DNA of 64,000 nucleotides, from assembly GCF_036971445.1 (NCBI RefSeq), contig NC_091481.1, positions 12,524,001 through 12,588,000 of the forward strand. Direction: 5' to 3'. The position numbers and the translations under genes were made by a program. This DNA comes from Narcine bancroftii. Lineage: Eukaryota. Of this stretch, positions 14,400 through 47,419 are shown piece after piece. Numbering within the stretch: position 1 is the stretch's first letter; every line of letters starts with the position of its first letter. Under the pieces are notes generated by a model. That model was not told the DNA's origin. It saw nothing but the letters and a program-made list of their open reading frames with translations, and did no database searches.

Positions 14400-14760
14400 C
14401 GCGACAGAACGGCCCCCATCAGCAACACGTTGTCAACTCCCCAACCTGTGCAGCCCCTTCTTCTCCTCCCTCACCTTTCTCGGTCACCACGAAGCAGTGT
14501 TTCACCGGCCCCAGCTCGCTGTAAATCTCTTCTAGCCGCTCGTTGTTAGCCAAAGTCGGCAGATTCCTCACGAATAGCGTTGTCAGATGGTCCCGAATCG
14601 CACCCTTGGCCTTCCCCGAGGGTGCAGCCATCTTTCGTGTGCTCCTTCCCAAGCGTTCCGACGGGAACACCAGTTCCACCAAATGGTCCGGGTGGAAACC
14701 AGAACCATCCTTGACCTCCACATATTTTAGCAGTCCTTTCTTCATTTAACTTGTAATGTT
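14400..14760 (-). promoter_or_regulatory. RBM28 promoter / first-exon CpG-rich region
   Basis: Local CpG enrichment around the start codon; YY1-like AAGATGGCTGC overlaps the ATG. Transcription start not determinable. Confidence 0.55.
14475..14631 (-). CDS. RBM28: RBM28 coding exon 1 (RRM1 start)
   Basis: AAGATGG start; encodes [52 protein letters not shown], resembling RBM28/Nop4 RRM1; donor AAG|GTGAGG, phase 1; CpG-rich context. Confidence 0.93.
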
Positions 14761-15712: not shown

Positions 15713-16006
15713 ATAACAGCAGAAGTGTAACCTACAACTCTCAATAAATGATGCCTATGGACAGAGCGAATTGCTTCCCAGTTGCAGCTTCAAACCTGAT
15801 CCATAGCCCCCAGTTATGTGTCTGGAGTGTACCAACATGCATTTCCTCAGCGTGCTTATGTTTCCTTCTGTGGTCCAAAAACGTGTTTGTAAAGGATGAC
15901 ACTGGACAACAAAGATTTTGCTTCCTGAACACCTTTGGGTGCATTTTATGGATTTTGGGCTGGTGATCAAAACTATCACCTTAAAATGTTCCTATCACAT
16001 ACGAAT

Positions 16007-19352: not shown

Positions 19353-19647
19353 TTTAGTGGCCTGCTAACCGGGACACGACCCAGTACATAAGATGGCCGG
19401 CGAAGGCAGCATCCTGCAGACCCTGCGGGGGCCAACGACCTTTGTTCCAGGTGACAACCAACTCAGCGGGAAGCAACGAGCAACAGCGGGAATGCCAACC
19501 AATCCAAGTGTGGCGCTGCCATGACATCACTCCTGTTATCAGTGGTGGGGAGAGAATATAAGCCAAGTTGCCAATGCAATAAACCAGTCGTCGACTTCCT
19601 GGGTGTGTGTCATTCTTTCCACACTTTGTGGTAGCGGGCACGCTACA
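19353..19647 (+). mobile_element. Solo LTR, about 295 bp, upstream of the GARIN1-like gene
   Basis: CpG-rich block ending GCTACA, with CCAAT (19499), TATAA (19557) and AATAAA (19578) in LTR order; 5' end degenerate, no TSD seen. Confidence 0.65.
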
Positions 19648-20075
19648 CTCCAGAAATGTTTGACTTTTACATGAGTATGTGCGGTATTTAGCAAGAGTGG
19701 ATACAGCTGATCACTGATGAGTAGGCTCCATATTTCTGCTTTTCCCACTCTGCTGTACATTTATGATCTCACTGGGAAAGTGATGCCCTGACAACTATTA
19801 TGACACCACCATCAGCTGTCACCTCGTTAATTAACCCAATCTGGATAATACTTGACCTTCACTGGAATGGTGTCAGTTGAATAAAGCCTGATCCAATCAG
19901 AAAGTGTTTGATACCATTATAAATCCTTTTGTTTGTGAATCTCAGCTGTCAATTACTGGAATTATAGAGTTGAAATGGAATCTTTCGTGCAGAAACATGT
20001 CTTCAGGAGCAAAACTGAAGTGCAGTAATTTGGAAAAAAAACTGGCCTGAGAATTACAAGAAGGGCAGATTAAAG

Positions 20076-20267
20076 ATGGATCAATCAACTTCACATAGAC
20101 ATGATTTATTCACAGGTGTAACAGAAGCTGCAAATTCTGCCACTGGATCTCCAAGCCTCAGTCCTGCACAACTCGGTGTGGAAGGTGGATCACTACACAA
20201 GCTCCTTCGATCCCAAGAATATAACCTCTTTGCACAGTCTGCAGTTTTTGAAAGTGATTTTATTCAG
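20076..20267 (+). CDS. GARIN1/FAM71F-like gene, coding exon 1
   Basis: AAGATGG start; ends LGVEGGSLHKLLRSQEYNLFAQSAVFESDFIQ, the FESxFIQ motif of the FAM71/GARIN family; donor CAG|GTCAGA; 192 nt. Confidence 0.88.
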
Positions 20268-21092
20268 GTCAGAGATTCAGACCAGAATCTATTGTAAGTT
20301 GAGGAATCCTGGCCAACTTTGGCATAAAATGTGGGCTGCACTCCAAACCAGTTCTCTTTCAGATATCCCATTCTTTACAGAGATTCAAACTGATACTCTG
20401 CTAGTTTTATCTGGTTCACATTAAAAAAAAACCCACAATACTTCAAAAAAGAACAGATGATTTTCTTCCCTGAACTGGTCATTGTACATGTCTCAACTAA
20501 AACCACAGATTGTTGCCCATCAGGTTGTTTGTTATTGCTAATGCAGCACCTTGCCCAAGATGAGTACTTTAAGTTTATGACATTTTTTTAATGTAAAAGT
20601 CAGAAAATTTAGATGCCCCTAATATGAACAATCCAAAAATCCAGATTTCTTGAAAACTCTGCTTTTATGTGCACGTGTAACTGTGTGCATTGCGTAAGCA
20701 CCACAGATGGACAGCCTGAGAATCCAGAAAATCCAAACTGACCCAATCCCTGAGCAGTCCAATTTTAGGACTTCTTCTGTGCAATTAAATCAATTCTGAT
20801 TGTTAATAATGTCATGGTGACTATTATTGAGAATCATAATGCTTATGAATAAATTGTTGGGTATCTCAGGTCCTGGTGATTGAGGCATTCTTTGCCACAT
20901 CCATGGAATCAGGTGAAATTCCATTCATCTAAATGAAAACTTGGAGCAGAAACCTGTAAAATCCCTTCTAATCAACCCTCAATTGTTTCACCACGGACTG
21001 AAACCTTTCTAATAGTTCTGTCTTCAGCTGCCAATGCTAACTTCAAAAACTCTCTGAATCTCTCCAATATATTAACTTATATTTCCTTCTTT

Positions 21093-21510
21093 CTTCTTCT
21101 TTGGCTTGGCTTCGCGGACGAAGATTTATGGAGGGGGTAAAAAGTCCACATCAGCTGCAGGCTCGTTTGTGGCTGACAAGTCCGATGCGGGACAGGCAGA
21201 CACGGTTGCAGCGGTTGCAGGGGAAAATTGGTTGGTTGGGGTTGGGTGTTGGGTTTTTCCTCCTTTGCCTTTTGTCAGTGAGGTGGGCTCTGCGGTCTTC
21301 TTCAAAGGAGGTTGCTGCCCGCCAAACTGTGAGGTGCCAAGATGCACGGTTTGAGGTGTTATCAGCCCACTGGCGGTGGTCAATGTGGCAGGCACCAAGA
21401 GATTTCTTTAGGCAGTCCTTGTACCTTTTCTTTGGTGCACCTCTGTCATGGTGGCCAGTGGAGAGCTCGCCATATAACACGAGGACCATCGCCTTCCCAA
21501 GATCGTGTTA
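21093..21510 (-). mobile_element. RTE-clade LINE 3' fragment with short 5' inversion
   Basis: Near-identical to 15288-15668 in reverse; TSD TATTTCCTTCTTT at 21080-21092 and 21509-21521. Confidence 0.88.
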
Positions 21511-22456
21511 TTTCCTTCTTTAAGGTGCTCCTTAATACCAACCATTGGCCATGCTGTTGACAGGGATCTGTTTTTTTTTTAAAACTTAAAGATAGATAGA
21601 CTAGTCAATTGGTCATAAAATATAATTTAATCCAGGCAAATGACGTAATATAATTGAGCACATTCAGCAAAAAAATGCACAATAAATGGGAGGATATTAA
21701 GGTCTGGGATCTTTGAGTGCATATTCAGAGCTCTTTAAAGGTAGAAAGACAAGTTAATAAGGTGGTTAAAAAGGCAAACAAAATGCTTTACTAAATTACT
21801 ATACTATAGGAGGGAAGTTATGCAAAAACTGTTAACGTTTATTTGTTATGATGTTAACAGAGGTTGAACATTCTGTACAATTCTTGTTAGTATAGTAAAT
21901 ATATAAATGAGAAGCTACCAAGGAGATTTACAGGAAATGTTGCCAGGTGTGAAAAGTGTACCTACAAGGGTGAGATTGTTTTCTTTGGAAAAGAGAAGGG
22001 TGAGGAGATGCTTAACATTCCAACATGGAGAAAAAAAAACTATTTTCCTTGGTTGAGGATTAAACACCAAGAGACACAGATTTAAATTAATTGGTTAAAT
22101 GGAACATGACATCTTTGTTTTCCATCCAGAGGATAGCAAGGGTCAAAAACTCAATCTGAAAGGGTGCTAGAGGTAGAAATCCTGATCACTAGAGGGTTAT
22201 GAATAAAGAGTTGGAAGGTGAATTAGATTCATTTGTTGTTTTTCGATCAGCCCATCTCCGTACACATTATAAATATTGCATGATTCTTAGATCTTTAGCC
22301 AAAAACTCATCTATTTTGTGCACATCGGTGCCTTAATGTCAAATGTGGTAAATTATCAGATATTCTGCTTCAGTGAGAGTGGTAGAATCCAAATACAGTC
22401 ATTTATACCCATTTCAAATAAGACCTCAAGCACTACTGCAGTAATATTTTTATATT

Positions 22457-22761
22457 AAAAACACACAAAACTGATGGAGGAACTCAGCCAGTCTTGCAGC
22501 GTCCACAGGAGATAAAGATATATTACGGACATTTCAGGCCTGAGCCCTTCGTCAGGGAAGAAGCAAAGAACAAATAGGAAAGCATTAGGATAAAGTCATG
22601 TTCTTTGCTTCTTCCCTGACGAAGGGCTCAGGCCTGAAATGTCTGTAACATATCTTTACCTCCTATGGACTCTTAAGACCAGCTGTATTTCTCCAGCATT
22701 TCTATGTGTTTTTACTACATCTGTGTGTTTTCACAGCATCTGCAGACTTTCGTGTTTCACT
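22457..22761. mobile_element. Penelope-derived fold-back element with hammerhead-like cores
   Basis: Inverted arms of about 115 bp with a perfect 45-bp inner stem (22528-22572 / 22599-22643); flanking duplication CAGTAATATTTTTATATT (22439-22456) / CAGTAATATCTTTACATT (22762-22779). Confidence 0.75.
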
Positions 22762-23011
22762 CAGTAATATCTTTACATTTCTGAGGTTTCCAGTCCAGAA
22801 CTTATAATTGTGGAATTGTTATTATTGCAAGCTGATTACTCCTCCACGCTGTTTGAATGACAATTTATATTGAGGTTGAGCAGGGTTTACACCAGCTCTT
22901 TACTTGTCTCATTTCTACATCTTAGTGAACATATTACCTGTAGAGCTAATGGGTAGAAAGCTCTGCCAGAAAGATGTTATTTTGACTAATTAAAATGTAA
23001 TTCAAATTCAG

Positions 23012-23181
23012 GTGACTCGACGTGGAAACCTTGTGGACATCTACAATATCCCAACACTCCTGACTTTGGGAATAACTGCCTCTGTTCCATTCTTACCTCT
23101 TCCAAATATCTTGATCATTGCTAGCAGAGACAACAAATCCAAATGGACTGAGGGAGAAGAAGGATATATGAAGATAACCAG
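23012..23181 (+). CDS. GARIN1/FAM71F-like gene, coding exon 2
   Basis: Acceptor AATTCAG|; VTRRGNLVDIYNIPTLLTLGITASVPFLPLPNILIIAS...MKITR, with the family motif LGxTxSVPxLPLPNxL; donor CAG|GTGATT; 170 nt, phase 0-2. Confidence 0.88.
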
Positions 23182-23429
23182 GTGATTGTGAGAGAGATAG
23201 TTTTCCTAAATTGTTGATAGGATCTTTGATAAGTCGATGGTTACTCGATTGCTCAGAATAGATTTCCATTAATTCGCATGTTTCAACTCCTGAGGGAACA
23301 GAAATGTTAAAATTAGAATCAGAAAGCATAGAAACTGTCTCTTTCATCCTACTTTGCCCATGTTTACCATGACCCTTATCAATACTAATCCTATTTGATT
23401 TCATTAGACCTATCCCTCTATAGGTCTTT

Positions 23430-24270
23430 TTATGTCAGGTCTCCACCTTGAGGCTGGCCATCCATGGAGAAAAATATGGAGCAGCCCTAAAAGACTGCTC
23501 CTGTGTCGCTTTTATGAAGAGCGGCACCTTTTAGTGTACTCCGGAGCATATGGAGGCATGGCAAGTGGTGCAGTAGCGCCTCCCATTGCCATGAGGTCTA
23601 ACATATGTGCTGAGCAATGTTATCCATAATCTCCCACGCAGCTGGAACTACTCTGGGAAACACAGACAGCCATTGATCATTCTTCCAGCTCTTCTGCCTG
23701 GCACTGCCCTTCCAGCTCTTCACTCCATCAGACTCCTCGGCTCTGCTTCTCCATCTCCACTCCACAGCATCTGTCCTCCCTCCTCCTGGGCCATGGAGCT
23801 CAGCACCCAGGTCCCTTCGCCCTCTGGCCCCAGTGGGCTCTGACTCTACTTGCCCCAGCTGGGCCTCCAGCTTTCTCCGGCTCCTCACTGCCCTCCTGCT
23901 CCTCAGTCTCGACGGCCTTGGTGAAGGAGCAAGGGGCAGAGTGGTAATGAGAAGAGGACATTTCTGGGTGGCAGGAGGGAGCCCTAACCCCAGCACCAAT
24001 CACTGTTGGAGCCCTGGTGGTGGCTCCTGAGTCGTGGGCTGATGGTGTCATCGCAATGTCATCAGCCTGCCCCTAGCCAGTTGTTTGTAGCGACAGTACA
24101 TTTATGATGTGTGGCGGAGCACTCCGCTGCACCTCTGACAAGGTTGAAGAGGGATTGGATTTCCTGCCCACAGAGCATTTATGATGGTAAGTTCTGCGAT
24201 GCAAGGGCGGAGAATCTCCACCTTTACAGTCGCATTTTTTCACTCTATTAAAGGGCTTAAAACCTTTCCT
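23430..24270. mobile_element. Unclassified GC-rich insertion (possibly a DNA-transposon remnant) within a CR1 fragment
   Basis: Abrupt GC-rich block; minus-strand CR1-like sequence lies on both sides (about 23310-23430 and 24270-24720). Family not identified. Confidence 0.35.
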
Positions 24271-25489
24271 GTCCATGTATGGTATCTGTCCGAATGCCAT
24301 TTAAACACTGTAATTGTTTCTGCCTCCTCTGACAGCTCATTCTAGATATTCATCACCTTCTGTGTGGAAAAAAATACCCCTCAAATCTTCTTCACATTTC
24401 TTCCCTCTCACATTAATTTTTTTTGTTCTCTCATCTGGACTCCTCTGCCTTTGGAAAGAGATACGACTATTCACCCTTTATCTCAGCCCTTCATAAATAT
24501 ACAAGACTCTCTAACCCTTTAACCGCCTATATTCCAGAGAGAATAAATGCAATGTATCCAATCTTTCTTTATAACCACAGGCCTCTAATTCTTGCCATGT
24601 TCTTGTGAATCCCTTCTGTGCTCTTTATCACGACCATATCCTTCCTGTATTGTGGCTACCACAAATGCAGACAATACTCTAACCAATGTTTAGTATAGCT
24701 GCAACATGACATCCCAACTTTTATTTTCTTTTGCAGTTTTACAATAACTGGCTAAAAATGAAAATTACCTAAAAATGTTACAAAATAGTCTAAAGGACTG
24801 AAGTGGAACACACCACAAAGAAAATACATTCCTGCGAAAACACATTAGGCAAAATAAAATTGATTCCTCCTAATTGGTTACTAATGTGAACAAATTTCAC
24901 AAGTGTGATTGTTCAGAAATGTTGCTAAAAGCTTGAGTAAAATGACAGTTATCAACATGAATGGATGATTGAGGAGTGCTCTCATGCGACTATTTCAACA
25001 TGGACATTAACTGGTGATAGAAATATAGGAATAGGCTTCTTAGTTCCTGACATCAGTGCTACCATTTCATTAGATCATGACTGGTGCATACCTCAACATT
25101 TTTATTTCTTTATTGATTTATCATCCTTGCGTAAAAAGCCCAATCAAGCTTACTGTTTGAAATTTCCAACTTCACAAAAACAAAGGAAGATAATGTGGAT
25201 GATCGAAATCCAGAATAAAAATCGCTGGAAATAGTCTGGAGCTTGGCATCCTCCGTGTAGAGGAACAGAGATAAATTTTCAGTTAACAACTGGAAAATAC
25301 TTTCAGATTTAATACATTTTAAGATACAAATGATGGGAAGAGATAAATGAAAAAATCGTAGAAATTCTGTGCATAGCTAGAAAACAAGAGAAATAATATA
25401 TGGAAAAATGAACTTTCTATTGTGGAGTCTCAATAATATTTAGGTAATAGAATTCCAGATTTCTATATCACCTTTACAATGGGTTAATT

Positions 25490-26720
25490 GATTTCTCCAG
25501 CTATGGCTGCCTTTTTGTTGGTTATGTGGAGAGTCCACGCTACAAGCCTACACAGGCAAGGACCCTTAACTCTTCCTCCACTACATCGACAGTTAACTTT
25601 GGTGCTGCCTGAGCACCCATAATAAGCTCTTCACTTGGTCCATCTCTAGAAACACTGTTCCCTTTCTCAATCTGTCAGTCTTCATCTCAGGAGGCAAACT
25701 CTCAACAGTCATCATCTACAAATCCACCAACTCCAAAAGCTACCTCGACTACACCTCTTCACATCCAGTCCCCATGTGAGGATTCAATTTCTTTCTCTAA
25801 GTTCCTCCATCTCTGTCGCATCTGCTCCCAGGATGAGATTCATGCCAGATCATCGGAGGTGGCTTTCTTCAAACAACATGGCTTCCCCTCTATCACCATC
25901 AATTCAGCTCTCACCCGTATATCCTTCATTACCTGGACATCTGCTCTAGTCCCCTGAGCCCCCAAGCCCTCACCTAGCACTTCACCAGCCTCCACATCCA
26001 ACACATCATTCTCACCACCAGACACATCTTCCCTGCTTCGCCCCCCCCCCCCCCGTCTCCACTTTCTGCAGGGACCGCACCCTCCATAACTCAATCCACA
26101 CCTCCCTTCTGACCAGTCTCCCCCCCCACCTTGGAACGACACCACCTCCCTCACCACCATTCAGGGTCCCAAACCATTCCTCACTTGTGAATCTCCAGGG
26201 GTCATCTATTGCATCCGGTGCTCCTGTTGTGGTCTCCCCTATATCAGAGAGACTGGGTGCAGATAAGGAGATCGCTTTATTGAGCACCTCGGCTCTGTCT
26301 GCTGTAATTGTGAGGATCTTCATCCATTTCAATTCCCTGCCCCATTCCCTTACTGACATGTCTGTCCATGGTCTCATGCACTGCCAGACTGAGACTACCC
26401 ACAAAGTGGAGGAACAGCACCTTGTATTCTATTTGGCTCTGCATTCACAGAGCCAATCCCCTCCCCCAGTTACTTCTCACATTTCCTCTCTCTCTCCTGG
26501 CCTCCACCCCATATCAAATTAACTTTGTTGGTCTCTACTCCTTCTCCTGCTCTTTCTTTTAATTCAGATACCTGCCTGCTTTTTACTCATACCTTGAAGA
26601 ATGACTCAGGCCCCAAAAATTGGCTATATATCTTTACCTCCTATGGATGCTGTGAGACCTGTTGAGTCTCGCCAGCATTTCCGTTTTTTACTACAATCAC
26701 AGCATCTGCAGACTTCCTCT
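25490..26720 (+). mobile_element. Penelope-like element (degraded RT and GIY-YIG endonuclease)
   Basis: YKSTNSKSYLDYTSSHP; GVIYCIRCSCCGLPYIRETG...DRFIEHL; GLMHCQTETTHKVEEQHLVF; terminal-repeat motif at about 26590-26720. Confidence 0.8.
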
Positions 26721-27394
26721 ATTGATACAGAGGACAGGAAGGACATCATGTTACCTATCAAATAACTCAGAAATCATCCAGTAGCTTCACAAGAAATTCA
26801 ACTTGCACTTTTCACATAGTGGTGGCCCTGTCCCAGAAAGTGGTGATGGAACTGTGTAAATGATAAAGTCAGGGTACCAGAAGTCTGGATGGATAGAATT
26901 AAGAGTTTTCAGTATGTTCTTATAAGATTGCTAATCTATATGGCTTTGCTCTGCATAAAGTCCTGGTTTTGTCAAATAAATAAGGCATCAAAATGCCTGT
27001 CTCTAATGGTAATAAATCCCACACAGTTAAATTATTCAATTGCCATAGCTAATTAAGGGGGAACTGACAAGATTTCAAGTGTGATACAGATACTTTACTG
27101 CATTACTTTAATCAAATCAAATGAACTCTTGACTTCACTCAAGTGAAACACAAAAGTATGCATATGTTGTGATTGTAGTAATAACACAGAAATGCTGGAG
27201 GAACACATGCAGTCTCACGCTTCCATCGGAGGTAATACATCATCCCTTCTAACTTGGTAATGCTTCACCTTGGGACAAATTCCATCTATTAGATTAATGA
27301 GAAAAGCCTGGATTAAAAAACATGTATCAAAAAAATGTGTCAGAGAAAAGATTTTAGGATAAATTGTAGTTTTGTTTTTGTCTTCCATTGAAAG

Positions 27395-27862
27395 GATGCT
27401 CCCAATGAAGTTGGTCAAACTGAGTGTCCACGCAAAGGTCAATCACTGTTTAAAGCTGGTCTTAGCCAATCAAAGTACCTTCTATCTCCAACTCCAGGAT
27501 AAGTACCCTTACCACGTCTTCGAGCTGTGGGAAGAACTTATTCACATAATTTATACCGGACTCTCCATAACTTTCAAAGATGCCAATGTCAATCTCCCCA
27601 AGGTCTCCTTGTGTGACTCAAGAAGCTCTTCAACCTCAGTCATTAGCTCTGAAAAATTCGCTCAGGATGCTCAAAAATCTTGCTGGAACATTCCCATCAG
27701 GGGCAATATTACAGCCAATTGTAAGATGGGAGTTTGGAAAAGAAAAAAGGTGTTGGTTGGAAAGGAGACACATGAAGGCTCTGATGATGTTCTCAGCACT
27801 GGATATTTCAGAAACACAGCCAGATCGCTGTTAGTTCATGGAAAGAATATTGACAAAGATTG
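27395..27862 (+). CDS. GARIN1/FAM71F-like gene, coding exon 3 (rest of DUF3699-type domain)
   Basis: Acceptor TTGAAAG|; RMLPMKLVKLSVHAKVNHCLKLVLANQSTFYLQLQDKYPYHVFELWEELIHIIYTGLSITFKD; open to donor TG|GTAAGG. The 3' boundary is less certain than the 5' one. Confidence 0.8.
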
Positions 27863-28369
27863 GTAAGGAATCCAACAAAAGAATTAGGCCTTTTCCTGAT
27901 ATTTTCCTATATAAACCATCTACATTTCTACAGTGGATAACGTCTGATTTCAGATTCAAATACAAGGGGGAACCTAGACACTTCTGCATGTTGCTCTGGT
28001 CTAATGGTACAGACTCAGGTGTTAGAGCAGGTAACTTCCCAGGATCAGTGGAGTCAGTCACTCCATAAATAGCCTGAGCATTTTACAGTAGTGCCAGCTC
28101 GTGTGCAATTTTGTACAAACTATTAGGAAGACCATTCCTTTGTCCTTCTCACAAATTCTATTTTCTGGCCACAGAATATATTCCTTTTCATGGCAACATT
28201 TCAAAGCTAAACTTTGATATTATATTTGACCATGAGATGAAATTTCAATCTGAGAACATTATCACCACTCCACTTATTCCCACTTCCATAACTGTAACGA
28301 TTCTAGAAGATGGCTAATCATTATTTTCTCAATCCATATCACCTGCAAAACAAGTTAATTTTAAAAAAA

Positions 28370-29290
28370 ATGTTTGCCACTGTCTCAGCTCATTTGCTAT
28401 TGAAACCCTCATCTATTCAGTTTTAGATCTAGGTCTTACTTTTCTAGTACACTCCTGGATGCCCTTCCAAGTACTAGTTTCTGTAATGAGGTCACCTAGA
28501 ACTCCACTGCCCTAGTTCTAACTTGTGCCAAGCCCTGTTCACCCCTAATCTCCATTACTGTCAACTCTCAGTTAACCCACAAATTAATTTCAAAATTCTT
28601 ACCTTCATGTTCAAACTTTTTGAGGGCCTCTATCATCCCCATCAGTAATCTCCTATAGCCTTGTATACTCTGATATCCACATTCTTCTAATTATCTCTGA
28701 TTTTAATCAATTCTGCCAAACACTAAGCACTGGAATTTCATGTATAAATAACCATCTTTCTTTCTTTCCCTCTTTCTTAAGTCAAGAATCTTCCTCTTGA
28801 CTAAGCTTTTGGTCATCTTCCTAATATATCCTTATATAGCAGTGTCAAATTTTGTTTAAGAATGCCCAGGAATAATCCTTGGAATATTCTGCTACAGTAA
28901 ACAAATGCAAGTTGTTCTTGTTTACATCTGTGGGATAATACATTTCTGATGGTTACACCATCTGGGCTGGATACTTTTGTTTGCTATACAATGATCCTTC
29001 ATTCTCTTTCAAAGCAGAGAGAGTTGGCATATCAATAGATGGCAGACTCAAAGAAGGAAAATTATCCCAAAGTATTTAACAGAAGCATTTTCAAATAGTT
29101 GAAAGCTAGTTTGGAGAGATCCTCAGGAGAAACCAGAGATAATGATGTAGGCATAGAAGAGAAGCCATGGCTGGTGATTCTCAAGTTTTGACTCCATAGA
29201 TAAGAATATAACCAGGTAATTGCAGTTCCATACAGCTGGATAACAATGAAAGATTGATCGAAGAAAATGGTGTGGTCAACCACAATGACT
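28370..29290. mobile_element. Old L2-type LINE remnants in two orientations
   Basis: Plus-strand 3' region at about 28370-28920; minus-strand RT piece VDHTIF...GTAITWLYSYL at about 29040-29290. Confidence 0.55.
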
Positions 29291-30808
29291 ATATGTACTG
29301 TATGTCAAAATGAGATGCATTACTTTTGTCAATTTCACAAAGCTCATCAGTGCATTTCATCAGAGCTATTTTAAAACTTTGAAATTGGCATACATTGATT
29401 GGAATGATTTCAACAAAGAGTAGTGGGTAAAATGGGCATAAATTTAGTAGCCTGCAACTGTGATCTCTTTAATCTCTTTAATCCACTATAACATTAAGTG
29501 TTCAGAAAAAATAAAAATTTTAACTGTCTCTTTTTCCCAATGATTAACTATTTGAAAATACCATACTAGACTAGGATCCATTGGACTAGGAACAGAGTTA
29601 AAATCGCATGTGATCATAATGAATTTAAATTCAATTAATTAATTAAATCTGGGAGGAAAAAACCTGTTTTGTCACAACATTTATGACCATGAAGCTTGCT
29701 GATCATCAGAAAAATGCCCTTTATAAAAAGAATTGCTCTCCTTCTCACCTGGTCCCTATGTGATTCCAGACCTATAGAAATGTTCATTCCAGGACAAGTA
29801 AGAACTGGCAGTAAATGTTGGCTTGGTCAGTACCATCTATATCTTCTAAATGTATATTAAGATAACAACTTGTACAAGTTTTGGCCATTCCAATATTGAA
29901 CATTTCTGCTGGTTGATTTATCTGTGTTCTACAGCAGCTATTTTCAACAGGGACCCAATGGCACTCCCTGGGGACCACGGCACATTTAAGTAAAAAACCT
30001 TGTTTTGTTTTCAACTCATGTAATTTAAATATTTTAATTTTTTTATGTAATCAGTAGAAGTATCGCAGAAACCATAACTTGACAGCTTCACGGGGGAAGG
30101 AGACCTATTAACTTTAGCATAGTTCTGGGGGGGTAGTGGGGGGGGCATAGGCGAAAAAAGTTGAGAACTGGTGTCTTTGATGCTGTTTGCAGCCTGATTG
30201 AACAGGTCTTGCTTCAAGATGCTTGAGGGCTTCTTTGATGTTTCATGCATTATGTCAATAAAGGCTGTCCCTCACTTTTTTTGAGGGACATCGATCCTTC
30301 TTAGGATCTTTTAGAGTTCAAAACACTTCAGAATATTGTGAGAGGTAAACACAGTCAAGCCCATTGCAATATTTGGTCACACCTCTGTACTCTCCAATGT
30401 TTAGTATCTGTTTCTCCTTTTTTTTGTATGTTAAACATGTTTGTGTTAATAGCTGACATCCAATACTCAATGCCCCCTCTCTCACAGAACATCAGTCACC
30501 AGCATGCATGACAAATATCATTCATTGTATGTTGCTGTCAACCTAACAATGAAGCAAATGCTGCCAATCTGATGTACACTGCATCTGTGCCAAACTGATA
30601 TTTGCTGCAAATAATTATCCATCTAATAGACAGTACAAATAGTACCCAATCTTAAAATAATGGTAGGAGCTGCTATTAGGATTTGCCATTAGTATCAATG
30701 TTTTAATTTGAGAAAGCTTCACCAGACAAATGCTGGCAAACAAGAACATCTGCAGTTGAAATTTTCTTCAGTCAACATATCAGAATAATAATGGTGTATT
30801 TTCATCAG

Positions 30809-30888
30809 GGTCCCCAATAATCAGGAGCATCAAAGAATATGGACAAGAACTGAACGGTTACTAGATGGGAAAGAAGATAAAAGCCCAG
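30809..30888 (+). CDS. GARIN1/FAM71F-like gene, predicted coding exon 4
   Basis: Acceptor TTTTCATCAG|; WVPNNQEHQRIWTRTERLLDGKEDKSP; donor CAG|GTACCA. At 80 nt, phase 2-1, it bridges exons 3 and 5 exactly. Support is phase logic only. Confidence 0.5.
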
Positions 30889-31973
30889 GTACCAGAAAAG
30901 AAATCAATGTCAATCTCAACTCATTAATGAAGTTTGTTAATGAAGTCTGTGGGAAGCTAACAAATTGAAGAGCTGTGTGTCTGTGCACCAAATCGAGAGC
31001 TGAAGAATCCAGTGGGGAGATAGGGGAGGGGAAGAACCATCAAAGGAGGGGGGATTAGAATGCTGGTGGGCTTCGGTAAGGGTGGTTGGGAAGGGGGACA
31101 AAAGAGGAAGAAGGGGTACAGATGAAGAATAGAGAGGGTGGGGTCCATTACCTGAAATTGAAAATTGTATCTATACTCTTTTAAAACAGGCTTCTCTCAC
31201 CTCGAATCATCAGATTCCAGTTACTGACAGCCTTTGTCTTCCGATCACCCACTCCACTTTGTAAGACTTATCCCCTCATGGCCCCTCCCATGAATGAAGG
31301 CAAGTTCAAAATGCCATCTTCACTACTTTATGCAGCTGAATTACCACTTTAAGGGAATTATATACCTATACACCTATGACTCTCTTTTCCACAGTGCTGA
31401 CGGTGGTACAATTGGTGTGGTGGTTAGCACAACACTATTACAGTTTGAGTTCACTGTTGTCTGTAGGAATTTGTACATTCTCACCATTACCTGCAATGGT
31501 TTTCTCTGGGTGCTCCAGTTTTCTCCCACCCTCCAAAATGTACAGGGTTGGTTGGTTAATTGGGTGTAACTGATGGCACAGGTTTAATGGGCCAAAAGAG
31601 CTTTCTACCATCCTGCACCGTTTAAAACACTGTTCAAAGCTCTACCATTTACAGTCTAAGGCCTGCCCTAGTTTGACTCACCAAATGCAATATCTCATAT
31701 TTCATTATCCATTTCTTAGCCCACTTTCCCAATTGATCTATAATTCTGTTATAAATATAGATGTTCTCCTTCACTGGCCATAACAGCACCAAATTTGGTG
31801 CAATTGACAAATTTACTAATATTGTTAGGAAAGTCATGTTGTGAAACTCCAATGATCAAGATAATCTGTAAATTTTAATATATATTTGCAGTTGATAATA
31901 GTTTGGAAAGAACCAGGGCTCTGATATCTACCCTTGTATGTTTCACGATGACATCAATTCGCTTTGTACGTAG

Positions 31974-32254
31974 GAGACGAGTGGGAAGAGATTATTGAAA
32001 GATGTTCGTGTGACCACTGTAAGACATGCAATCAAGTTTTTACACTACACACCATGCCCTGTAAACAGAAGCAAATTGGGACTGAAGAACAAGAGGATGA
32101 AGAAGGAGAAGGTGGTGGAGGAGGAGAAGGAGAGATTAATAATGTTGAGGCAGAAGATGAAAGCTGCACATACTTTGGACTCTGGGAACGTGACAGACCA
32201 ACGTTGATGCCACTCTCTAGGCTAAGTAGCCTCGTAGCTGTTGGACTAAGATAG
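31974..32254 (+). CDS. GARIN1/FAM71F-like gene, predicted last coding exon
   Basis: Acceptor TTTGTACGTAG|; GDEWEEIIERCSCDHC...EEQEDEEGEGGGGGEGE...YFGLWERDRPTLMPLSRLSSLVAVGLR-stop. LWERD resembles the C-terminal LWEQE motif I recall for mammalian FAM71F. AATAAA follows at about 32423. Confidence 0.6.
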
Positions 32255-32577
32255 ATTTGAATTTACATTTTTTGGAAGGCAGATTCTGTTTGTGCTTTTA
32301 TAATCTTTAACTTGAATGTTTCCAGATATCATAATTATTTCTAATTGCATCTGAACAAATTCTGCACTGGAAACCTTTTTACCAACTTATCAAGCAATTC
32401 CATATCACTAAAATGATTGAGAAATAAAGTTTTTTTGCACCCTAACCTGGCAAACTCTCTGAGAGTAGAGATATTACTAACCAAATGAAAATATAGCTGA
32501 GTTTACACGTCCATTGAGTACTTCCAGGGCAGGAAAGGCACTATTTGATGCAACATAAAAAATAATTCCAAAATATG

Positions 32578-35400
32578 CCATCAAAAATCCAGTACAAAGA
32601 GGTGACATAAGATCGGAAGATATGGAATCATTGTGGGATGAGTTAAGAACTGGCAAGGGTAAAAAGACACAGTGGGCAGTTATATACAGATCTCCAAACA
32701 GTGAACAATTACAACAGCAAATGGAAAATGCTTGGGAGAAGGGCAATGTTATGGTCGTCATGTGGGATTTTAACATCCAAGTAAATTGGAAAAACCAGGT
32801 TGGAACTGGGTCTCAAGAGAGAACTGGTAGAAAGCCTATGAGATAGCTTTTTAAGGCAGCTTGTTATGAGCCTACTAGAGGATCAGCTATACTGGATTGG
32901 GTGTTAGACAGAACATAGGACATTACAGCATAGTACTGTTCCTTCAGCCCTTGAGGTTGTGCCGACCTACATATACCTAACAAAGAAAAATACAAAACCC
33001 TTCCTACATCGTAACCCTCCATTTTTCTTTCATCCATGTGCCTGTCTAAGATTCTCTAAATGCTGCTGATGTTTCAGCCTCCACCACCACCCCTGGCAAG
33101 GCATTCCAGGCACCCACAACTCTCTGTGTAAAAAAAAATTACCTAAAATGTCTTTGCTAAATATTCCTCCCTTCACTTTGTACAGATGACCTCTGGTATT
33201 TGCTATTCCTGCCCTGGGAAAAAGGCACTGACTATCCACCTTATCTGTCCCTCTAAGAATCTTATACACTGTTGTGCAATGCACCAAAGGTGATTAGAGA
33301 ACAGAGTAAAGGAACGATTAGAGGGCAATAATCTCAATATGATTAAGTTCAATTTGAGATTTAACAAGGAGTAACTAAAGTCAGCTGTGTCACTATTTCA
33401 GTGGAGTAAAGAGAAATACACTGGCATGAAAGAGGAACTGGCCAAAGTAGACTGGAAGGAGCTCTAGTAGGAAGATGGGAAAGCAGTAATGTATGGAGTT
33501 TCTGCAAGAAATAAGAAGGTGCAGGATATATACATTCCAAAAAAGAAGAAATATTTGAATGGAAAAATTGTCACAACTATGGCTGACTAAGGAAGTCAAA
33601 ACTAAGGAGGGAAAAGATGAAGTATGAAAGTAGGCTAGCAAATAATATCAAAGAGGATAACAAAGAGCTTCTTCAAGTTTATAAAGAGTAAAAGAGAGGT
33701 GAGAGTAGATATAGGACCATTAGAAAATGATGCTTGAAAAATAATAATGGGGGAGAAAAGGAGATGGCAAAAGGACTAAATAAATAATTTGCATTGGTGT
33801 TCACTATGGAAGATTTTATCAGTGTGCTAGATGTTGAAGAGTATCAGGGAAGGGAAATGAATGCAGTTACTATTTCAAGGGAGAATGTGCTCAGAAAGCT
33901 GAATGGTTTAATGGTGGATAAATCTCCTGGACTAGATGGATTGCACTCTCAGGTCCTGCAAGAGGTAGCGGTAGAGATTGTGGAGGCTTTGTAATAATCT
34001 TTCAGGAATCAATAGATTCCAGAGGACTGGAAAATCACAAATGTCACTCCACTATTCAAGAAGGGAGGGAGGCAGCAGAAAGGAAATTATAGACTGGTTA
34101 GCTTGACGTCAGTGGTTGGGAAGATGTTGAAGTTGATTGTCAAGGATGAAGTTACGGAGTATTTTGAGGCATATGACAAGATAGGCCAAAGCTAGCATAG
34201 TTTCCTTAAGGGAAAATCTTGCTTGACAAACCTGTTGGAATTCTAGAAGAAGTGACAAGCAGGCTAGATAAAGGAAATGCAGTGGATACTGTGTATTTGA
34301 ATTTGGATAAGGTGCTGCACAAGAGGCTACTTAACAGGAAACATACTAGTGTGGGTAGAGCATTGGCTGATTGGCAAGAAACAGAGCAGGGATCATATTC
34401 TGGTTGGCTGCCAGCTGCGAGTGGTGTTCCACAGGAGTCGGTGTTGAGGTCACTCTTTTAATGTTGTATATTCATGATTTGGATTACAGAATGAATGGCT
34501 TTTTGGCCAAATTTACAGATGATACAGTTAAGGAAACATGGAGATACCAAGGAGGAACAGGTAGTGTTGAGGAAACACAGAGGTTGCAGAAGGACTTAGA
34601 TTTGGAGAATGGGCAGAGAAGTGGCAAATGAAATACAATGTCAGAAAGTGTATGGTCATGCACTTTGGTAGAAAAAATAAACAGGCAGACTTGGGGAGAA
34701 AATTGAAAATACCCAGATGCAAAGGAACCTGGGAGTCCTCATTCAGGGTAGCCTGAAAGTAAACTTGCATGTTGAGTCAGTGGTGAAGAAGGCAAATGCA
34801 ATGCTGGCATTCATTTCAAGAGGTATATAATAGCAGAGATATGACAAGTACAGGCAGGGGTGTTTACAAGGCACTAGTGAAACCTTAAGGAGTATTGTGA
34901 GCAGTTTTAAACTCCTCAATTAGGAAAGGATGTGCTGATGTTGGAGAAGGTTCAGAGGAGATTCACAAGGATGATTCTGGGAATGAAAGGGTTATCATAT
35001 GAGGAATGTTTGAAAGCTCTTGGCCTTTACTCATTGGAATTTAGGAGAATGAGGGGAGATCTCATTGAAACATTTCAAATGTTGAAAGGCAAGGATAAAG
35101 TAGATGCAGAAAGGTTTTTTTCCCCATGGTGGAAGGATCTAGGACAAAGCAAGATTGAATGGCGCCCGCTTAGAACAAATGCAGAGGAATTTCTTCAGCC
35201 AGAGGCTGGTATGTTTGTGGAATTTGTTGTGGCGGCCAGGTCATTGGGTTTAAGGCAGAGATTGAATTGTTCTTGATTCGCCAGGGCATCAAAGGTTATA
35301 GGCAGTGGGGCTGAGTGGAAAATGGATCACCTCATGATTAAATGGCAGGGCAGACACAATGAGCTAAATAGCCTGTTTCTTCTCCAATGGCTTATGGTCA
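32578..35400 (+). mobile_element. CR1 LINE, degraded ORF2 (endonuclease and RT), with nested inverted CR1 3' end at about 32908-33268
   Basis: ESLWDELR...VIYRSPNS; DKSPGLDGLHSQVLQE; SGVPQESVL; FTDDT; LEKVQRRFTRMILGMKGLSYEECLKALGLYSLEFRRMRGDLIETF; many stops and frameshifts. Confidence 0.9.
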
Positions 35401-42090: not shown

Positions 42091-43534
42091 AAATAGTTGT
42101 GAATGATTTCAAGATCATTGCTGTTAATATATCTGCATTTGGCAATAATGTTGAGCATATCACAGTAAAATCCCCAGCACCTATGGTGGTTGGTAGATCC
42201 CAGATCAGTAAATTTGCAGGTTGCTTGAGATTGCATTGTGTGATTGGTAACCTAACCACTAGGGGCACCAATTTTAAATGTTCTTTTTTTTTTAGCTATT
42301 TATTTGTTGCTATATTGCTTGAATTGGGATTTAGCTGCATATTGAATTCCTAGCAGTGTTAACTTGTGCTTTTTTTTTACTGTTTTAGTACAAGTTTGAG
42401 GAACTATTACAAATAAAGGTTTCTTGTTGGCATTGACAGTTTGTCTTGCATATCCAGTTGAGAAACATTGATCAGTACTGTGATGAAATACAAAATGTTA
42501 CATTAGTGCAACACAAAATCTGTCCAGAGAAAATCTGTAGGGTCAGATTATATTGGCACTTTGTCTCATCTTAAATAATTCTCGTAACTATAAAATAATT
42601 TTACAGCGAGATAACAGATTAGTGAGGTTTTTAAAATCAAGTAACAAGTAAATTTAGATTTTACCCTGCCAGATTGATAAGAAATTATTTGTAATTATAT
42701 ACATCCTTTTAAGGATATTACAATGCTTTAGATTCCTGCCACTTCAGCTCCCCTATCTGCCTAAGCTCTTTAAAGCGGCACTATAGGATCTTTTAAAATC
42801 CATCAGAGCAGACAGACCTCTGCTTCACTTGCTCTAAAAGAGCACAACAATCGATGGATCTGCTGATAGTGATTGAGTTTGATGCTTTTTTTCAGTCACT
42901 CATTGTTTGTAGGGTTCAATGCCTATATTAAGTGATCATCTTTATTAAAGAATATAAAACAGTGCACTAGAATGTATGCACTTGCTTTGTAGCAAGCATT
43001 ACCTTGTAGATGGGAATGTGGAGTTAGAATTGTTTCTAGAAAAGTTCCAGATTTTGTATTCTCATGATAAGTCGGTAAACCACTGACAGAGGTACCATGT
43101 ATGGCCACATTGCTGACAAAAATCAATAATCATGGAGAAGGCAAATACTAAAATAAAAGGCAATTGAACAAAGCTTGATACAATAAAATCCCCAGTATCT
43201 GGAATTCAAGCAGCCGCCAAAAATAAATCGCAGAAAATAAATAGGTTAAAAAATACAAAAATGTAAAATTAGGGCCCCCCTCCCCTCAACCACAGTGGTC
43301 AGTTTGCTGACCTACACAGCATGCAATCTCGAGCAACCAGAAAATTCACTTGCCTGATATTCACTAGTTTCCATGGGTGCCGGTTGCCAAGGATTTTGCT
43401 GTAATTTGTATTCCAAGCATGCTATGATCTATCCAAAAAATATATCGCCCAGTTTTGCATGTTACTTTCAAAATGTTATTCTCCCAAAACCAATCTTTTG
43501 TGTTTCCTTTGTCTTTTCAGAAAAAATTACAGGC

Positions 43535-43758
43535 ATGATGGGTTTGACAAAGCTGGTTTTATACCTCACCATGTGTGGTATTTATGCTCTGAGTAAACCC
43601 ACGGAAAAGAAAGATCGAACCTTCCATGACAAGGAGTTGAGTGACAAGGTACACGATGATGCAGAGAACTTCGATTATGACCATGATGCTTTCCTTGGAG
43701 CTGAAGAAGCAAAGACATTTGACCAGCTCACTCCTGAGGAGAGCAAAGAAAGGCTTGG
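43535..43758 (+). CDS. CALU: Calumenin first coding exon (signal peptide, N-terminus)
   Basis: Acceptor CTTTTCAG| at 43520; [28 protein letters not shown]...[28 protein letters not shown]; donor GG|GTGTGT; phase 2. Confidence 0.96.
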
Positions 43759-46700
43759 GTGTGTAAGAACGTGTCAAAAATGCTCAGCAATTTGTTTGTT
43801 TTGGAAATGTTGGATGGAGCTGAATGTGTTCTGTAATACTGCAAATCCAACTTTGTACTTTATGTGAAAGGGTGCAGGATTTGAGATACTGTAAATACTA
43901 ATGGCGAATTATGACCTGTGATTAAACAGAGGGGGATCCCAGTTAAATGTTCAGTTCTATATCACCAGTTAACAAAACATTTTTTCTTCTTGATGGAAGT
44001 TGTACACCACAGCCTTGATGATGGTATGGTAAATCCTTAAATGATTGTTAATTGCTTAACCATTACTGGCAAAATTGTTATCTCCTTGACAATTGAGCAT
44101 AGTATATCAAAGGGGTCTGGATCTACAAACTGGGCAGTGTAGTTAGTGTAGTGCAGTGGTTTCCTCTCACTCACTCACTCTCTTTTTTTCTCTCTCATAT
44201 GAAAGGGTAACTTTACATCTCACCCACCTATAACAAAATTGTCTTCAGTTTTCACACTATATTGCCTACACATTTTTTGTTTGCTGTGCTGCGGTCATAC
44301 TTTATTCTGCAATAAAAATATGCCAATCACAACAAAATGCAACAGAAAAAAAACATAAGAAAATATAATAGTATTGCAATTTCTAGGAAAAGTACATGAC
44401 ACAATAATACAAGTAAGAATGTGAAACCAAAAAATCAAATACTTAAAAACTACTTAACATTAGAAGGAAATTCAGGTATACCTCGTATAAACACCGTTTT
44501 GAACCGCGCATATTTTGTTATAACTTGGTCGGTCCCTGTCCTGGGCTAGTTACTGTCCCTGGCAGTTACTCCCACCCCATCCTCACCTGACAGATAGCAC
44601 ATGACGAGTGTTGCAGGCTGAGTTTGCCGGAAATGTTTGGTCTGCCCCTTTTTTCCACACCACCCCTCTGGATCCTTCCACCACCCACTTTGGGAGTGAC
44701 TGGTATAGTGGTTAGCACAAGACTAATATAGCACCATTGACCCAAGTTCTAATCTGAAGCTGCCAGTAAGGAGTTTGTACACTTCTCTGTGACCTGCCAT
44801 GGAATTGATGGGTTAATTGGGCTACACGGGGTTCATGGGCTAGGAGGACCTTCAGCCATGCTGTATTTTTAAAAAAATGAAGTTGTGGGAAATGTTAAAC
44901 TGTTGCATATTTGATCAATTTTTTTCTGCAAAAAAAGTTACTATCTGGGGTTTTTTTTAAAGTTTCTGCTGGGTTAGATCGATGTTGCTTTTCTCTGAAA
45001 TGTTTGGATCTCCCTGAGCCACAATTGGATAATGGCTGGTATTTGCTACAACTGTTTGGGCTGGTTGGTACTTCTGTCAGAATTTGTTTTTCTTGCCCTG
45101 AGCTGTATTTCCCATTGGGAAATTTGATCAAAATGTGCTGAATTATATTTGGGGATTTGACAGTTTTAATATGAACATTTATTGTAATGCCCTTTTTGAT
45201 TTTTTTTTTGTGACCAAAGGGTACTGTGGGGGGGAGGAAAGGAATGCTACATTCCCAGAATAAATGTTATTGCTGGATTAAACTGGAGCCAGGTAGGTTA
45301 GTCCATGGATAATCTCAAGTTATTAAAATGCTGCTTTTCAGTAGGAAGCAAAAGGCTTGGAGGTTAAGAACTAACAAACTTACTTTATTTATGGTGTCTT
45401 TTCTAGAGAAAGAATGGATGTTATTTGCTCTTAATTCCATGGAATGTTTTCACTTGCATTTTTATTGTGATTTGCTGTCTTTGACATTTAATTAACTTCT
45501 TTTCCACTCATCGTTTTCTCTGAACTAAATAGTCTACTGGACTGAACCCAAAGTGTACTTAAATTGCATCCTCTGTTTACTAATCTTGCTAATCCTGCTA
45601 CGTTGGCCAGACACTTGCCCTCTTAATATGAAAGTGGTCTTAAATGATCCAATGTACAATGTGCAGAGAAGGTGCCCGGATGTTGTGGGCACACAGTCGT
45701 AGTATTTTAATGTCAGTCAGGAGAGTGTTGGTTGGGGTGCGGTTTTCTTTTTCTAGAGGGTCTGGCAAAATATCTGGAAACAAATTTTAACAAACATGCA
45801 TGGTAATTCAGTGGATATTTTCTAATTTCAATGTACTGTACAAATCCAGTTCTTAGAGGATGCTCATTGTGATTTTATTTGCCAGCACATTAAAGCTTGG
45901 AGTTCGAGACATGGAACTTTCAACAGCATGGAAAAGGGCTCTTCGTCCCAACTTCTCCAAGTCTACCAAGTTGTTCACCAGCTAGCCCCATTTTCTTGCA
46001 TTTGGCCCATATCCCTCTAAATCTCTCCAACCCGTGTTCCTGTCTAAATAGTTTTTAAATGTTATGATTATATCCACCTCAACCACTTCCTCTGGCAATT
46101 TGTTCCATATGCCCTCCACCCTCTTTGTGGAAAAAGTACTCATCTGATCACTCTTTGGCTTTCCCTTCTCAAATTAAGAGAGTAATTTTGCACTTTAGGT
46201 AGCCCTGAAGTTCCCTGATAACAATCCAAACTATAAATATTAGGTAGATTTGCTCTGTCTCAGTATACTTGCACTGTGAAGAACCGTGATAACCTGTTGA
46301 TTGATGTCCACTATAAAGAGGTGTTGCTATGGAGCTTATCTGGTACTCTTAGATAAGATTTGGATTGTGTATATTTTTTTCCCCATCCATCATTCCCCAC
46401 AGCATTTCCAAATGGTTAGACTTGTAAAGATTGTCTGCTGGATGGGAGTCCTTCATATGCATGTCTGGGATGGGTGAAGTGGTGGGATGTTGGATGGGAG
46501 ACAGTATGTTGAGGGTTGACATGACCACTTAATACCAGAGAATGGCACTAACAACCTTTGCATTTTCTCTTGGATGCCATTTGTTTCCTTGACACCTGTT
46601 TGCCCCTAATACTATTAATTGCTTTAATCAAAGGAATTTTTACATGTATACGGATGCTCAAAATAGCAGAAATTCAGGAAAAACTGCTCTTTATAGTTCT

Positions 46701-46953
46701 CTAAATATCAAACATTTGGCCCACTAGATGTCCAATACCAAGATTTGTGGCCTTTAAGTTTGTAATCAGATTTTTGGTTGCTGTTTGCTTATTATTTGAA
46801 GTCACCAGGAGGAGAGTACATGGAAGTCAGTGGCATGTGAATCTGATGCTGTGTGATTCTGGAATTCCTTGGACCCCATGTAAAAGTGCCTCTCAATCAG
46901 CTTCTTTCAGCTTTCATCCTAACCTCTCCTGGGTTTTCTGACTCTCCCAACAG

Positions 46954-47147
46954 AAAAATTGTAGATAAAATCGATGGAGACAAGGATGGGTTTGTAACAG
47001 AGGAGGAACTTGAGAAATGGATTAAACATTCTCAAAAGCGTTGGATTTACGAGGATGTCTACCGTCAGTTGAAGGGTCATGATCTAGACAACGATGGTCT
47101 CGTCAGCTGGGAAGAGTACAAAAATGCGACCTATGGGTTCCTGTTGG
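46954..47147 (+). CDS. CALU: Calumenin mutually exclusive exon A (EF-hands 1-2)
   Basis: Acceptor CCCAACAG|; [64 protein letters not shown]; donor G|GTAGGT; 194 nt, phase 2-1. Confidence 0.95.
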
Positions 47148-47225
47148 GTAGGTTAATTTTGAAAACCCTTCAAGGTCCAGAGTCTGACCCTGCCATCTAC
47201 ACATTTTTTGTCTCTCTATTTATAG

Positions 47226-47419
47226 AATGATAGTAGTTAAAATAGATGAGGATAAGGACGGATTTGTGACGGAGGCAGAGCTGAAGGCCTGGATAAAGCG
47301 GGCTCAGAAGAGGTACATCTTCGAGAATGTTGGGCGCCAGTGGCCAGATTTCGACAGTAACCAGGATGGTCTTGTCTCCTGGGAGGAATACAGAAATGTA
47401 ACATACGGCTTCTACATGG
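47226..47419 (+). CDS. CALU: Calumenin mutually exclusive exon B (EF-hands 1-2)
   Basis: Acceptor TTTTATAG|; [64 protein letters not shown]; donor G|GTAAGG; 194 nt, phase 2-1. Confidence 0.95.

What the first reader, a model, noticed from the sequence alone, without database searches (positions are those of the whole stretch)
20076..32254. Intact multi-exon GARIN1/FAM71F-like gene beside CALU in a non-mammalian genome
Seen: five phase-compatible exons giving about 396 aa with no internal stop, including FESDFIQ-VTRRG, LGITASVPFLPLPNIL, RMLPMKLVKLSVH, FYLQL...VFELWEELI and GLSITFKD. Established: GARIN/FAM71 proteins are Golgi RAB2 interactors studied mainly in mammalian sperm-head and acrosome formation, and FAM71F1/F2 lie directly upstream of CALU in mammals. 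Inference: a single syntenic pro-orthologue, implying the RAB2-GARIN module dates to early jawed vertebrates. The cysteine cluster and acidic/glycine tract near the C-terminus look lineage-specific.
Basis: partly seen in the sequence, partly recalled or inferred. Interest (0 to 1): 0.7.

Follow-up and report, generated by a model that had tools for sequence, protein, structure and literature searches.

The report
Ray GARIN1 gene skipping its domain
This is a real, already-catalogued ray gene related to the mouse sperm-cap genes Garin1a/1b and likely does a similar Golgi job, but in the one RNA data set that covers it most transcripts appear to skip the exon carrying half of the predicted RAB2-binding domain.

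Summary
Five GT-AG exons give a 396-aa protein identical (396/396) to RefSeq XP_069765686.1, "GARIN1B-like" of an electric ray. All four junctions appear in run X1. It falls in the GARIN1 clade (100/100), outside the mammalian 1A/1B split, and lies between RBM28-like and CALU-like genes.

Novelty of the gene is low: orthologues are already auto-annotated in skates, sharks, chimaera, paddlefish, coelacanth and amphibians.

Two first-reader inferences fail. The genome holds two more multi-exon GARIN genes, so the family had already split in the jawed-vertebrate ancestor. The C-terminal features are mostly ancient: CxCxxCxxC recurs in paddlefish and amphibians, and a GxW…PLSxL end motif reaches primate GARIN1B.

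New here: (1) an in-frame exon-3 skip (23181→30809) at about four times the contig depth of the inclusion path in X1, giving 240 aa without the PF12480 half; (2) the N-terminal domain is predicted to be a PH-type fold that this skip would cut in two. The skip rests on one run's contigs. RAB2 binding and testis expression are inferred from mouse, not shown.

The parts
20076..20267 (+). GARIN1 coding exon 1 (aa 1-64): variable N-tail, predicted short helix 39-44 and first strand of the PH-like domain
   Evidence: X1 contig from 20065 joined to exon 2
23012..23181 (+). Exon 2 (aa 65-121): predicted strands 80-86, 97-103 and start of 117-124; its donor splices to exon 3 or directly to exon 4
27395..27862 (+). 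Exon 3 (468 nt, frame-preserving cassette; aa 121/122-277): second half of the PH-like domain (PF12480 match 27396-27581), the GARIN1-specific GLSITxKD motif, and a low-confidence linker. AAG (non-YAG) acceptor.
   Evidence: PF12480; included at depth 404.5, skipped at depth 1703.7 in X1; acceptor; fold
30809..30888 (+). Exon 4 (aa 277-304), linker; in both isoforms
31974..32254 (+). Exon 5 coding part (aa 304-396 and stop)
32003..32029 (+). CxCxxCxxC cluster (aa 314-322): shared with paddlefish, axolotl and caecilian; CxxC remnant in coelacanth; absent from the mammalian sequences examined
32084..32134 (+). Acidic/glycine tract (aa 341-357), variable, elasmobranch-type
32174..32251 (+). Conserved GARIN1 C-terminal motif (GLWERDxPxxMPLSRLSSLVA-type; aa 371-396), chimaera to primate GARIN1B
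32423..32428 (+). AATAAA, likely polyadenylation signal
   Evidence: X1 exon-5 contig ends at 32397
14475..14631 (-). First coding exon of the upstream head-to-head RRM gene, likely RBM28
   Evidence: RRM_1; best PDB hit yeast Nop4; the name RBM28 rests on recall
43534..47419 (+). Downstream EF-hand gene, likely CALU: exon ending at 43758 and two mutually exclusive 194-nt exons (46954-47147, 47226-47419)
   Evidence: EF-hands; both alternative joints in X1, X2 and X3; the name CALU rests on recall

Best explanation
The window holds a spliced, intact gene of the GARIN1 clade whose full-length product likely acts, like mouse GARIN1B, as an effector of GTP-bound RAB2 at the spermatid Golgi through a predicted PH-type N-terminal domain, while an in-frame exon-3-skipping transcript seen in one run would lack half of that domain and so likely limits the amount of RAB2-binding protein. 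Shown: gene structure, splicing, clade membership, the skip junction and its frame. Predicted: a PH-superfamily fold for aa ~30-180, with exon 3 giving the last strands and the C-terminal helix. Inferred from mouse: RAB2-GTP binding, Golgi location and a role in acrosome shaping. Inferred from the fold: the 240-aa form cannot complete the domain but keeps the Cys cluster and the conserved C-terminal motif, so it is either unstable or a non-binding competitor.
For: Identity with XP_069765686.1. PF12480 over cut-off. IQ-TREE on 44 rows: 19 GARIN1 rows form one side of a 100/100 branch that follows the species tree, with Aotus GARIN1B and marsupial GARIN1A nested among mammals; FastTree on 153 domains gives 0.979. 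All 4 invariant residues of alignment A3 (P95, P124, F163, W166) are present. AlphaFold blocks over aa 41-170 have pLDDT 80-97; top structural matches are PH domains: Sec3 Z 10.6 (rmsd 3.8, 136 aligned), Dbs Z 10.1, Exo84 Ral-binding domain Z 9.0. Mouse FAM71F1 binds active RAB2A/B, its Rab-binding region is proposed as aa 28-207, and its knockout is sterile (PMC8602946, passages). Skip: the GT..AG joint uses the same splice sites as the inclusion joints; depths add up (1703.7 + 404.5 = 2108 against 2113 upstream and 1930 downstream); 240 aa with no stop. Exon 3 has an AAG acceptor while both paralogues have CAG.
Against: The skip rests on one contig of one run of one study, with 26 letters on its short side; the tool warns that contig depth measures expression poorly, and the run is RNA only by guess, though it shows spliced joints. 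No skip-type protein among 185 family proteins held: only 2 have the N-half without the C-half, and both are truncated; all 16 hits cover 97% or more of aa 36-185. A skate Logan contig of 1446 nt encodes the full 396-aa form (P0013), which hints that skipping is not dominant there. Exon 3 stays open and keeps the invariant core; any extra divergence of exon 3 in this species is not significant against other species (p 0.35 and 0.14). GARIN paralogues differ in RAB2 nucleotide preference (PMC11236154, passages), so mouse function need not transfer exactly. A shared PH fold shows no function.
Confidence: 0.7

Rival explanations
1. An ordinary GARIN1 orthologue whose exon-3 skip is leaky splicing at a weak acceptor in this sample or species, without regulatory meaning; enough full-length protein is still made.
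For: AAG acceptor on a long 468-nt exon. No skip-type protein in the collections searched. Full-length skate contig. The RefSeq name of P0001 has no isoform number and its cluster has 1 member.
Against: The skip path has about four times the depth of the inclusion path and keeps the frame. The skate genomic ORF P0011 reads ...YER|M, which also forces a purine at -3 of the acceptor, so the weak site is probably old.
Confidence: 0.45
2. The 240-aa form is the main functional product in this ray: a RAB2-independent protein acting through the ancient Cys cluster and C-terminal motif, with the domain exon under relaxing selection.
For: Majority path in X1. The C-terminal 28 aa have 1 private change in this species, against 8 of 60 in the exon-3 domain half and 2 of 72 in the exon-1/2 half (Fisher p 0.043, post hoc, uncorrected). 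Mouse GARIN1B reaches the Golgi in COS-7 cells when expressed alone, whereas GARIN3 needed RAB2 co-expression (PMC8602946 and PMC11236154, passages).
Against: The excess is not significant against other elasmobranchs, and the whole protein evolves faster in this species. Exons 1-2, half a domain, remain strongly conserved, which fits selection on the intact fold. No protein evidence.
Confidence: 0.15
3. The full-length protein binds another small GTPase or a phosphoinositide rather than RAB2, as other PH domains do.
For: Nearest folds include Sec3 (membrane/Rho1), Exo84 (RalA) and CERT PH domains. Identity to marsupial GARIN1A over the domain is only about 40%.
Against: All seven mouse GARINs are reported to bind RAB2 (PMC11236154, abstract and passages). 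RAB2A exons 2-7 in this genome are 92-100% identical to other vertebrate RAB2A.
Confidence: 0.12

Closest known systems
RefSeq XP_069765686.1, Golgi-associated RAB2 interactor protein 1B-like (source label: Narcine bancroftii)
   Same: 396 of 396 residues, same length.
   Different: An automatic annotation. The exon-3-skipping form is not in its cluster (1 member) and did not appear.
Mouse/human GARIN1B (FAM71F1) and GARIN1A (FAM71F2)
   Same: GARIN1 clade; N-terminal RAB2-binding region; GLSITxKD motif; GARIN1B shares the C-terminal GxW...PLSxL motif; same gene neighbourhood as listed for sheep.
   Different: One gene here instead of two. It keeps a CxCxxCxxC cluster that the mammalian sequences examined lack, has an E/G tract, and has a frame-preserving cassette exon across the domain. 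For mouse Fam71f1 only one mRNA variant was seen by full-length RT-PCR of the mutant (PMC8602946, passage).
PH-superfamily small-GTPase effector domains (Exo84 Ral-binding domain, Sec3 PH, Dbs PH)
   Same: Predicted beta-sandwich plus C-terminal helix; Z 9-10.6.
   Different: 6-16% identity; no PDB sequence match to the GARIN alignment at E<=10. Fold likeness only.
Other GARINs (GARIN2-6; FAM71A-E)
   Same: PF12480; the two other loci in G000 share the intron positions in the domain.
   Different: They lack GLSITxKD, and the C-terminal motif hits only 1 of 109 proteins without that signature, weakly; separated from GARIN1 by a long 100/100 branch.

Membership tests
GARIN/FAM71 family | PF12480 GARIL_Rab2_bd above the curated cut-off | tested here: met
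   48.9 bits vs 22, profile positions 7-70 of 71, exon 3
GARIN/FAM71 family | N-terminal conserved region matching the proposed Rab-binding region (mouse aa 28-207) | tested here: met
   aa 36-185 hit 16 of 125 candidates incl. marsupial GARIN1A; 273 representatives at E<=1e-3; region from PMC8602946 passage
GARIN/FAM71 family | Binds RAB2A/B (GTP-bound form for GARIN1B) | not testable with these tools
   Needs a binding assay; inferred from PMC8602946
GARIN/FAM71 family | Testis-enriched expression | not testable with these tools
   Spliced in run X1, but tissues of the runs are not on record
GARIN1 (FAM71F) subfamily | Groups with mammalian GARIN1A/1B to the exclusion of GARIN2-6 | tested here: met
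   100/100, 0.979; anchors named; trees midpoint-rooted, no outside outgroup
GARIN1 (FAM71F) subfamily | Location beside CALU, in the RBM28 region | tested here: met
   RRM gene upstream and EF-hand gene with mutually exclusive exons downstream; CALU, FAM71F1, FAM71F2 and RBM28 share a 0.9-Mb sheep window (PMC11161479 table passage). Exact gene names and mammalian order are recalled.
GARIN2-6 subfamilies | Clade membership | tested here: not met
   P0001 lies outside all of them; loci A and B of G000 lie on that side
PH-domain superfamily fold | Beta-sandwich closed by a C-terminal helix | tested here: met
   Predicted model only; the top hits are PH-superfamily domains, best Z 10.6

The most novel reading that the evidence does not exclude
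Cartilaginous-fish GARIN1 uses a conserved weak-acceptor cassette exon to switch between a RAB2-binding PH-domain protein and a dominant domain-broken form that keeps an ancient Cys cluster and C-terminal motif. That motif, kept by the essential mammalian paralogue GARIN1B, would be a second, undescribed functional site in acrosome biogenesis.
Probability: 0.2. Interest if true: 0.55.

Novelty: already known. Interest (0 to 1): 0.3.

Why it matters
The gene itself is catalogued. The two main GARIN papers, as far as the passages read show, discuss only mammals, and searches for FAM71F1+shark and FAM71+acrosome+teleost found no paper. The comparison gives three cheap tests for work on globozoospermia genes: a PH-type model of the RAB2-binding region, which has no solved relative by sequence; a roughly 26-residue C-terminal motif kept from chimaera to primate GARIN1B, whose deletion in mouse could be assayed; and a natural splice form that splits the domain. 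It also shows that GARIN1 and at least one other GARIN lineage existed before cartilaginous and bony fishes parted.

Tried and rejected
1) Complex prediction, GARIN1 aa 28-192 with a salmon RAB2A gene model (non-canonical first strand), GTP and Mg: no verdict (0.04, mark 0.34; alignments not used). No evidence either way.
2) The run search listed no holder on record as RNA; 3 runs of one study, RNA by guess.
3) X2 has no cover and X3 only depth ~3 on the GARIN1 exons, while all three runs show the CALU-like joints. A hint of sample-restricted expression only: X1 was chosen with this gene, and lack of cover proves nothing.
4) C-terminal motif as an amphipathic membrane helix: hydrophobic moment 0.21-0.41, below the protein's own 90th percentile of 0.49. 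Not supported.
5) Relaxed selection on exon 3: not significant against other species.
6) Atlas search of aa 300-396: no usable hit.
7) PDB sequence search with the GARIN alignment: 0 hits.
8) Teleost survey: no teleost was identified in the GARIN1 clade, but only 150 of 273 hits were listed and only 18 proteins were looked up by name. Inconclusive.
9) Pre-vertebrate origin: Atlas shows an arthropod-rich cluster with PF12480 in 13% of members (score 0.88, under the 0.9 bar) and an arthropod RasGEF protein at TM 0.72. Leads only.
10) Literature: FAM71+pleckstrin+RAB2 gave 1 unrelated listing; none of the 15 listed papers contained the GARIN terms. Only open-access text was searched; Fukuda 2008 was not read; supplements were not opened and may hold wider alignments.
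11) Earlier scan findings: none.
Rows left out of the trees: 20 near-duplicates or isoforms and 10 partial domains; one search used 44 of those 153 rows.
Full report
Observation. A search with exon 3 returned 8 proteins from 19 candidates. The first, P0001, is RefSeq XP_069765686.1 'Golgi-associated RAB2 interactor protein 1B-like', labelled Narcine bancroftii, and matches the model at all 396 residues. The other seven are annotated orthologues in skate, five sharks and chimaera. Later searches add paddlefish, coelacanth, axolotl, caecilian and marsupials. The gene is real and already catalogued.

Splicing. One public run (X1; Logan contigs; RNA by guess; tissue not on record) holds exon 3. 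Laid on 19500-33000 it shows all four predicted junctions as GT..AG joints. It also shows a joint from the exon-2 donor (23181) to the exon-4 acceptor (30809) at depth 1703.7, against 404.5 for the path through exon 3. The two add to 2108, close to 2113 upstream and 1930 downstream. Read at face value about a fifth of the signal includes exon 3, but contig depth is a rough measure and this is one run. Exon 3 is 468 nt, so the skip keeps the frame and gives 240 aa without a stop. Its acceptor is AAG, whereas both paralogous genes use CAG there, and the skate genomic reading implies a purine at the same place. No skip-type protein was found among the 185 family proteins held, and a skate contig encodes the full-length form, so conservation of the skip is open.

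Orthology and age. A profile search found 273 representatives, of which 150 were listed. FastTree on 153 domain sequences (20 near-duplicates and 10 partials left out) and IQ-TREE on 44 of them place P0001 in one clade with paddlefish, coelacanth, amphibians, marsupial GARIN1A and owl-monkey GARIN1B (0.979; 100/100), with the 1A/1B split nested among mammals. All 44 sequences with a GLSIT-type motif after the domain fall in that clade. So it is a pro-orthologue of GARIN1A and 1B. The neighbours fit: an RRM gene whose best PDB match is Nop4 lies head-to-head upstream, and an EF-hand gene with two mutually exclusive exons lies downstream. A sheep table lists RBM28, FAM71F1, FAM71F2 and CALU in one 0.9-Mb window (PMC11161479, passage); the names RBM28 and CALU for the window's genes and their order in mammals are recalled. 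The gene is not alone, however. G000 has two more PF12480 loci on the same contig, each with three domain exons and the same intron positions. One is sister to an uncharacterised stingray protein (100/99), the other to a chimaera 'FAM71B-like' protein (99/99), both outside GARIN1. The family had therefore already split before cartilaginous and bony fishes parted; the trees have no outside root, and an older origin is only hinted at.

Anatomy. AlphaFold on a 105-sequence alignment gives a confident domain (blocks over aa 41-170 at pLDDT 80-97) and a low-confidence remainder. The domain matches PH-superfamily folds: Sec3 PH (Z 10.6, rmsd 3.8, 136 aligned), Dbs PH (Z 10.1), Exo84 Ral-binding domain (Z 9.0); the Atlas model agrees. 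No solved structure matches by sequence. Exons 1-2 give the first strands; exon 3 gives strands 128-134, 139-144 and 149-154 and helix 160-175. The skip would leave half a domain. In mouse the Rab-binding region of FAM71F1 is proposed as aa 28-207; the protein binds active but not inactive RAB2A/B, and knockout males are sterile, while Fam71f2 knockouts are subfertile (PMC8602946, passages). The C-terminus is not mainly lineage-specific. CxCxxCxxC occurs in chimaera, paddlefish, axolotl and caecilian, shrinks to CxxC in coelacanth and several unnamed tetrapod sequences, and is absent from the mammalian ones examined. A profile of the last 26 residues hits 31 of 76 proteins with the GARIN1 signature (many of the rest are partial or have other ends) and, weakly, 1 of 109 without it. 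It is intact in owl-monkey GARIN1B and degenerate in P0054, an unnamed protein that I take from its tree position to be placental GARIN1A. Only the E/G tract looks elasmobranch-specific.

Mechanism. Most likely the full-length protein is a RAB2-GTP effector at the spermatid Golgi, binding through the PH-type domain (inferred from orthology; not shown here), with the Cys cluster and end motif as a second, unknown contact site. The skip form would not bind RAB2 and would lower the active dose or compete through the tail. The main rival is leaky splicing at a weak acceptor with no regulatory meaning. A third reading, that the short form is the main product and exon 3 is decaying, has slight support: 8 of 60 private changes in the exon-3 half against 2 of 72 in the exon-1/2 half (p 0.043, post hoc), not significant against the other six elasmobranchs.

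Literature. Seen: find-passages and abstracts of PMC8602946 and PMC11236154, passages of PMC11161479 and PMC12361510, and listings for the rest. In those passages GARINs are compared only between mouse and human. Searches for FAM71F1+shark and FAM71+acrosome+teleost found 0 papers; FAM71+pleckstrin+RAB2 gave one unrelated listing. Subscription papers and supplements were not seen.

Verdict. What remains of interest is the unannotated majority skip form in one run, the PH-type model, and the conserved GARIN1 tail. Interest 0.3.

Noticed in passing
G000:C27:65433286-65444300 (L005-L006): Second GARIN gene (locus A): three domain exons with canonical sites; sister to an uncharacterised stingray protein XP_072890230.1; outside GARIN1.
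   Followed up: partly
G000:C27:72873536-72883193 (L011-L012): Third GARIN gene (locus B): sister to chimaera FAM71B-like XP_007910719.1; flanked by a sacsin-like ORF upstream and Tubby-family exons on the opposite strand downstream (101 of 1291 ORFs scanned). A Tubby gene near human GARIN5A on 19q13 is recalled, not tested.
   Followed up: partly
window 46954-47147 and 47226-47419: Mutually exclusive duplicated EF-hand exons of the CALU-like gene, both used in all three runs at a similar ratio of about 0.4-0.65.
   Followed up: partly
window 19605-20040: An unspliced X1 contig at depth 507 upstream of the start codon, between the RBM28-like and GARIN1 genes; possibly a longer 5' UTR or a separate transcript.
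   Followed up: no
L010:3-8015 (+): An open frame of at least 2671 codons with Sacsin and HEPN domains.
   Followed up: no
window 5639-7144, 15181-15754, 21041-21523: LINE-like remnants; the stretch near 21100-21500 draws contig depths in the hundreds of thousands in all three runs, so a very abundant repeat.
   Followed up: no
protein searches: No GARIN1 from a stingray or manta ray appeared as a cluster representative, although a stingray GARIN paralogue is in the collection; may be clustering, annotation or loss.
   Followed up: no
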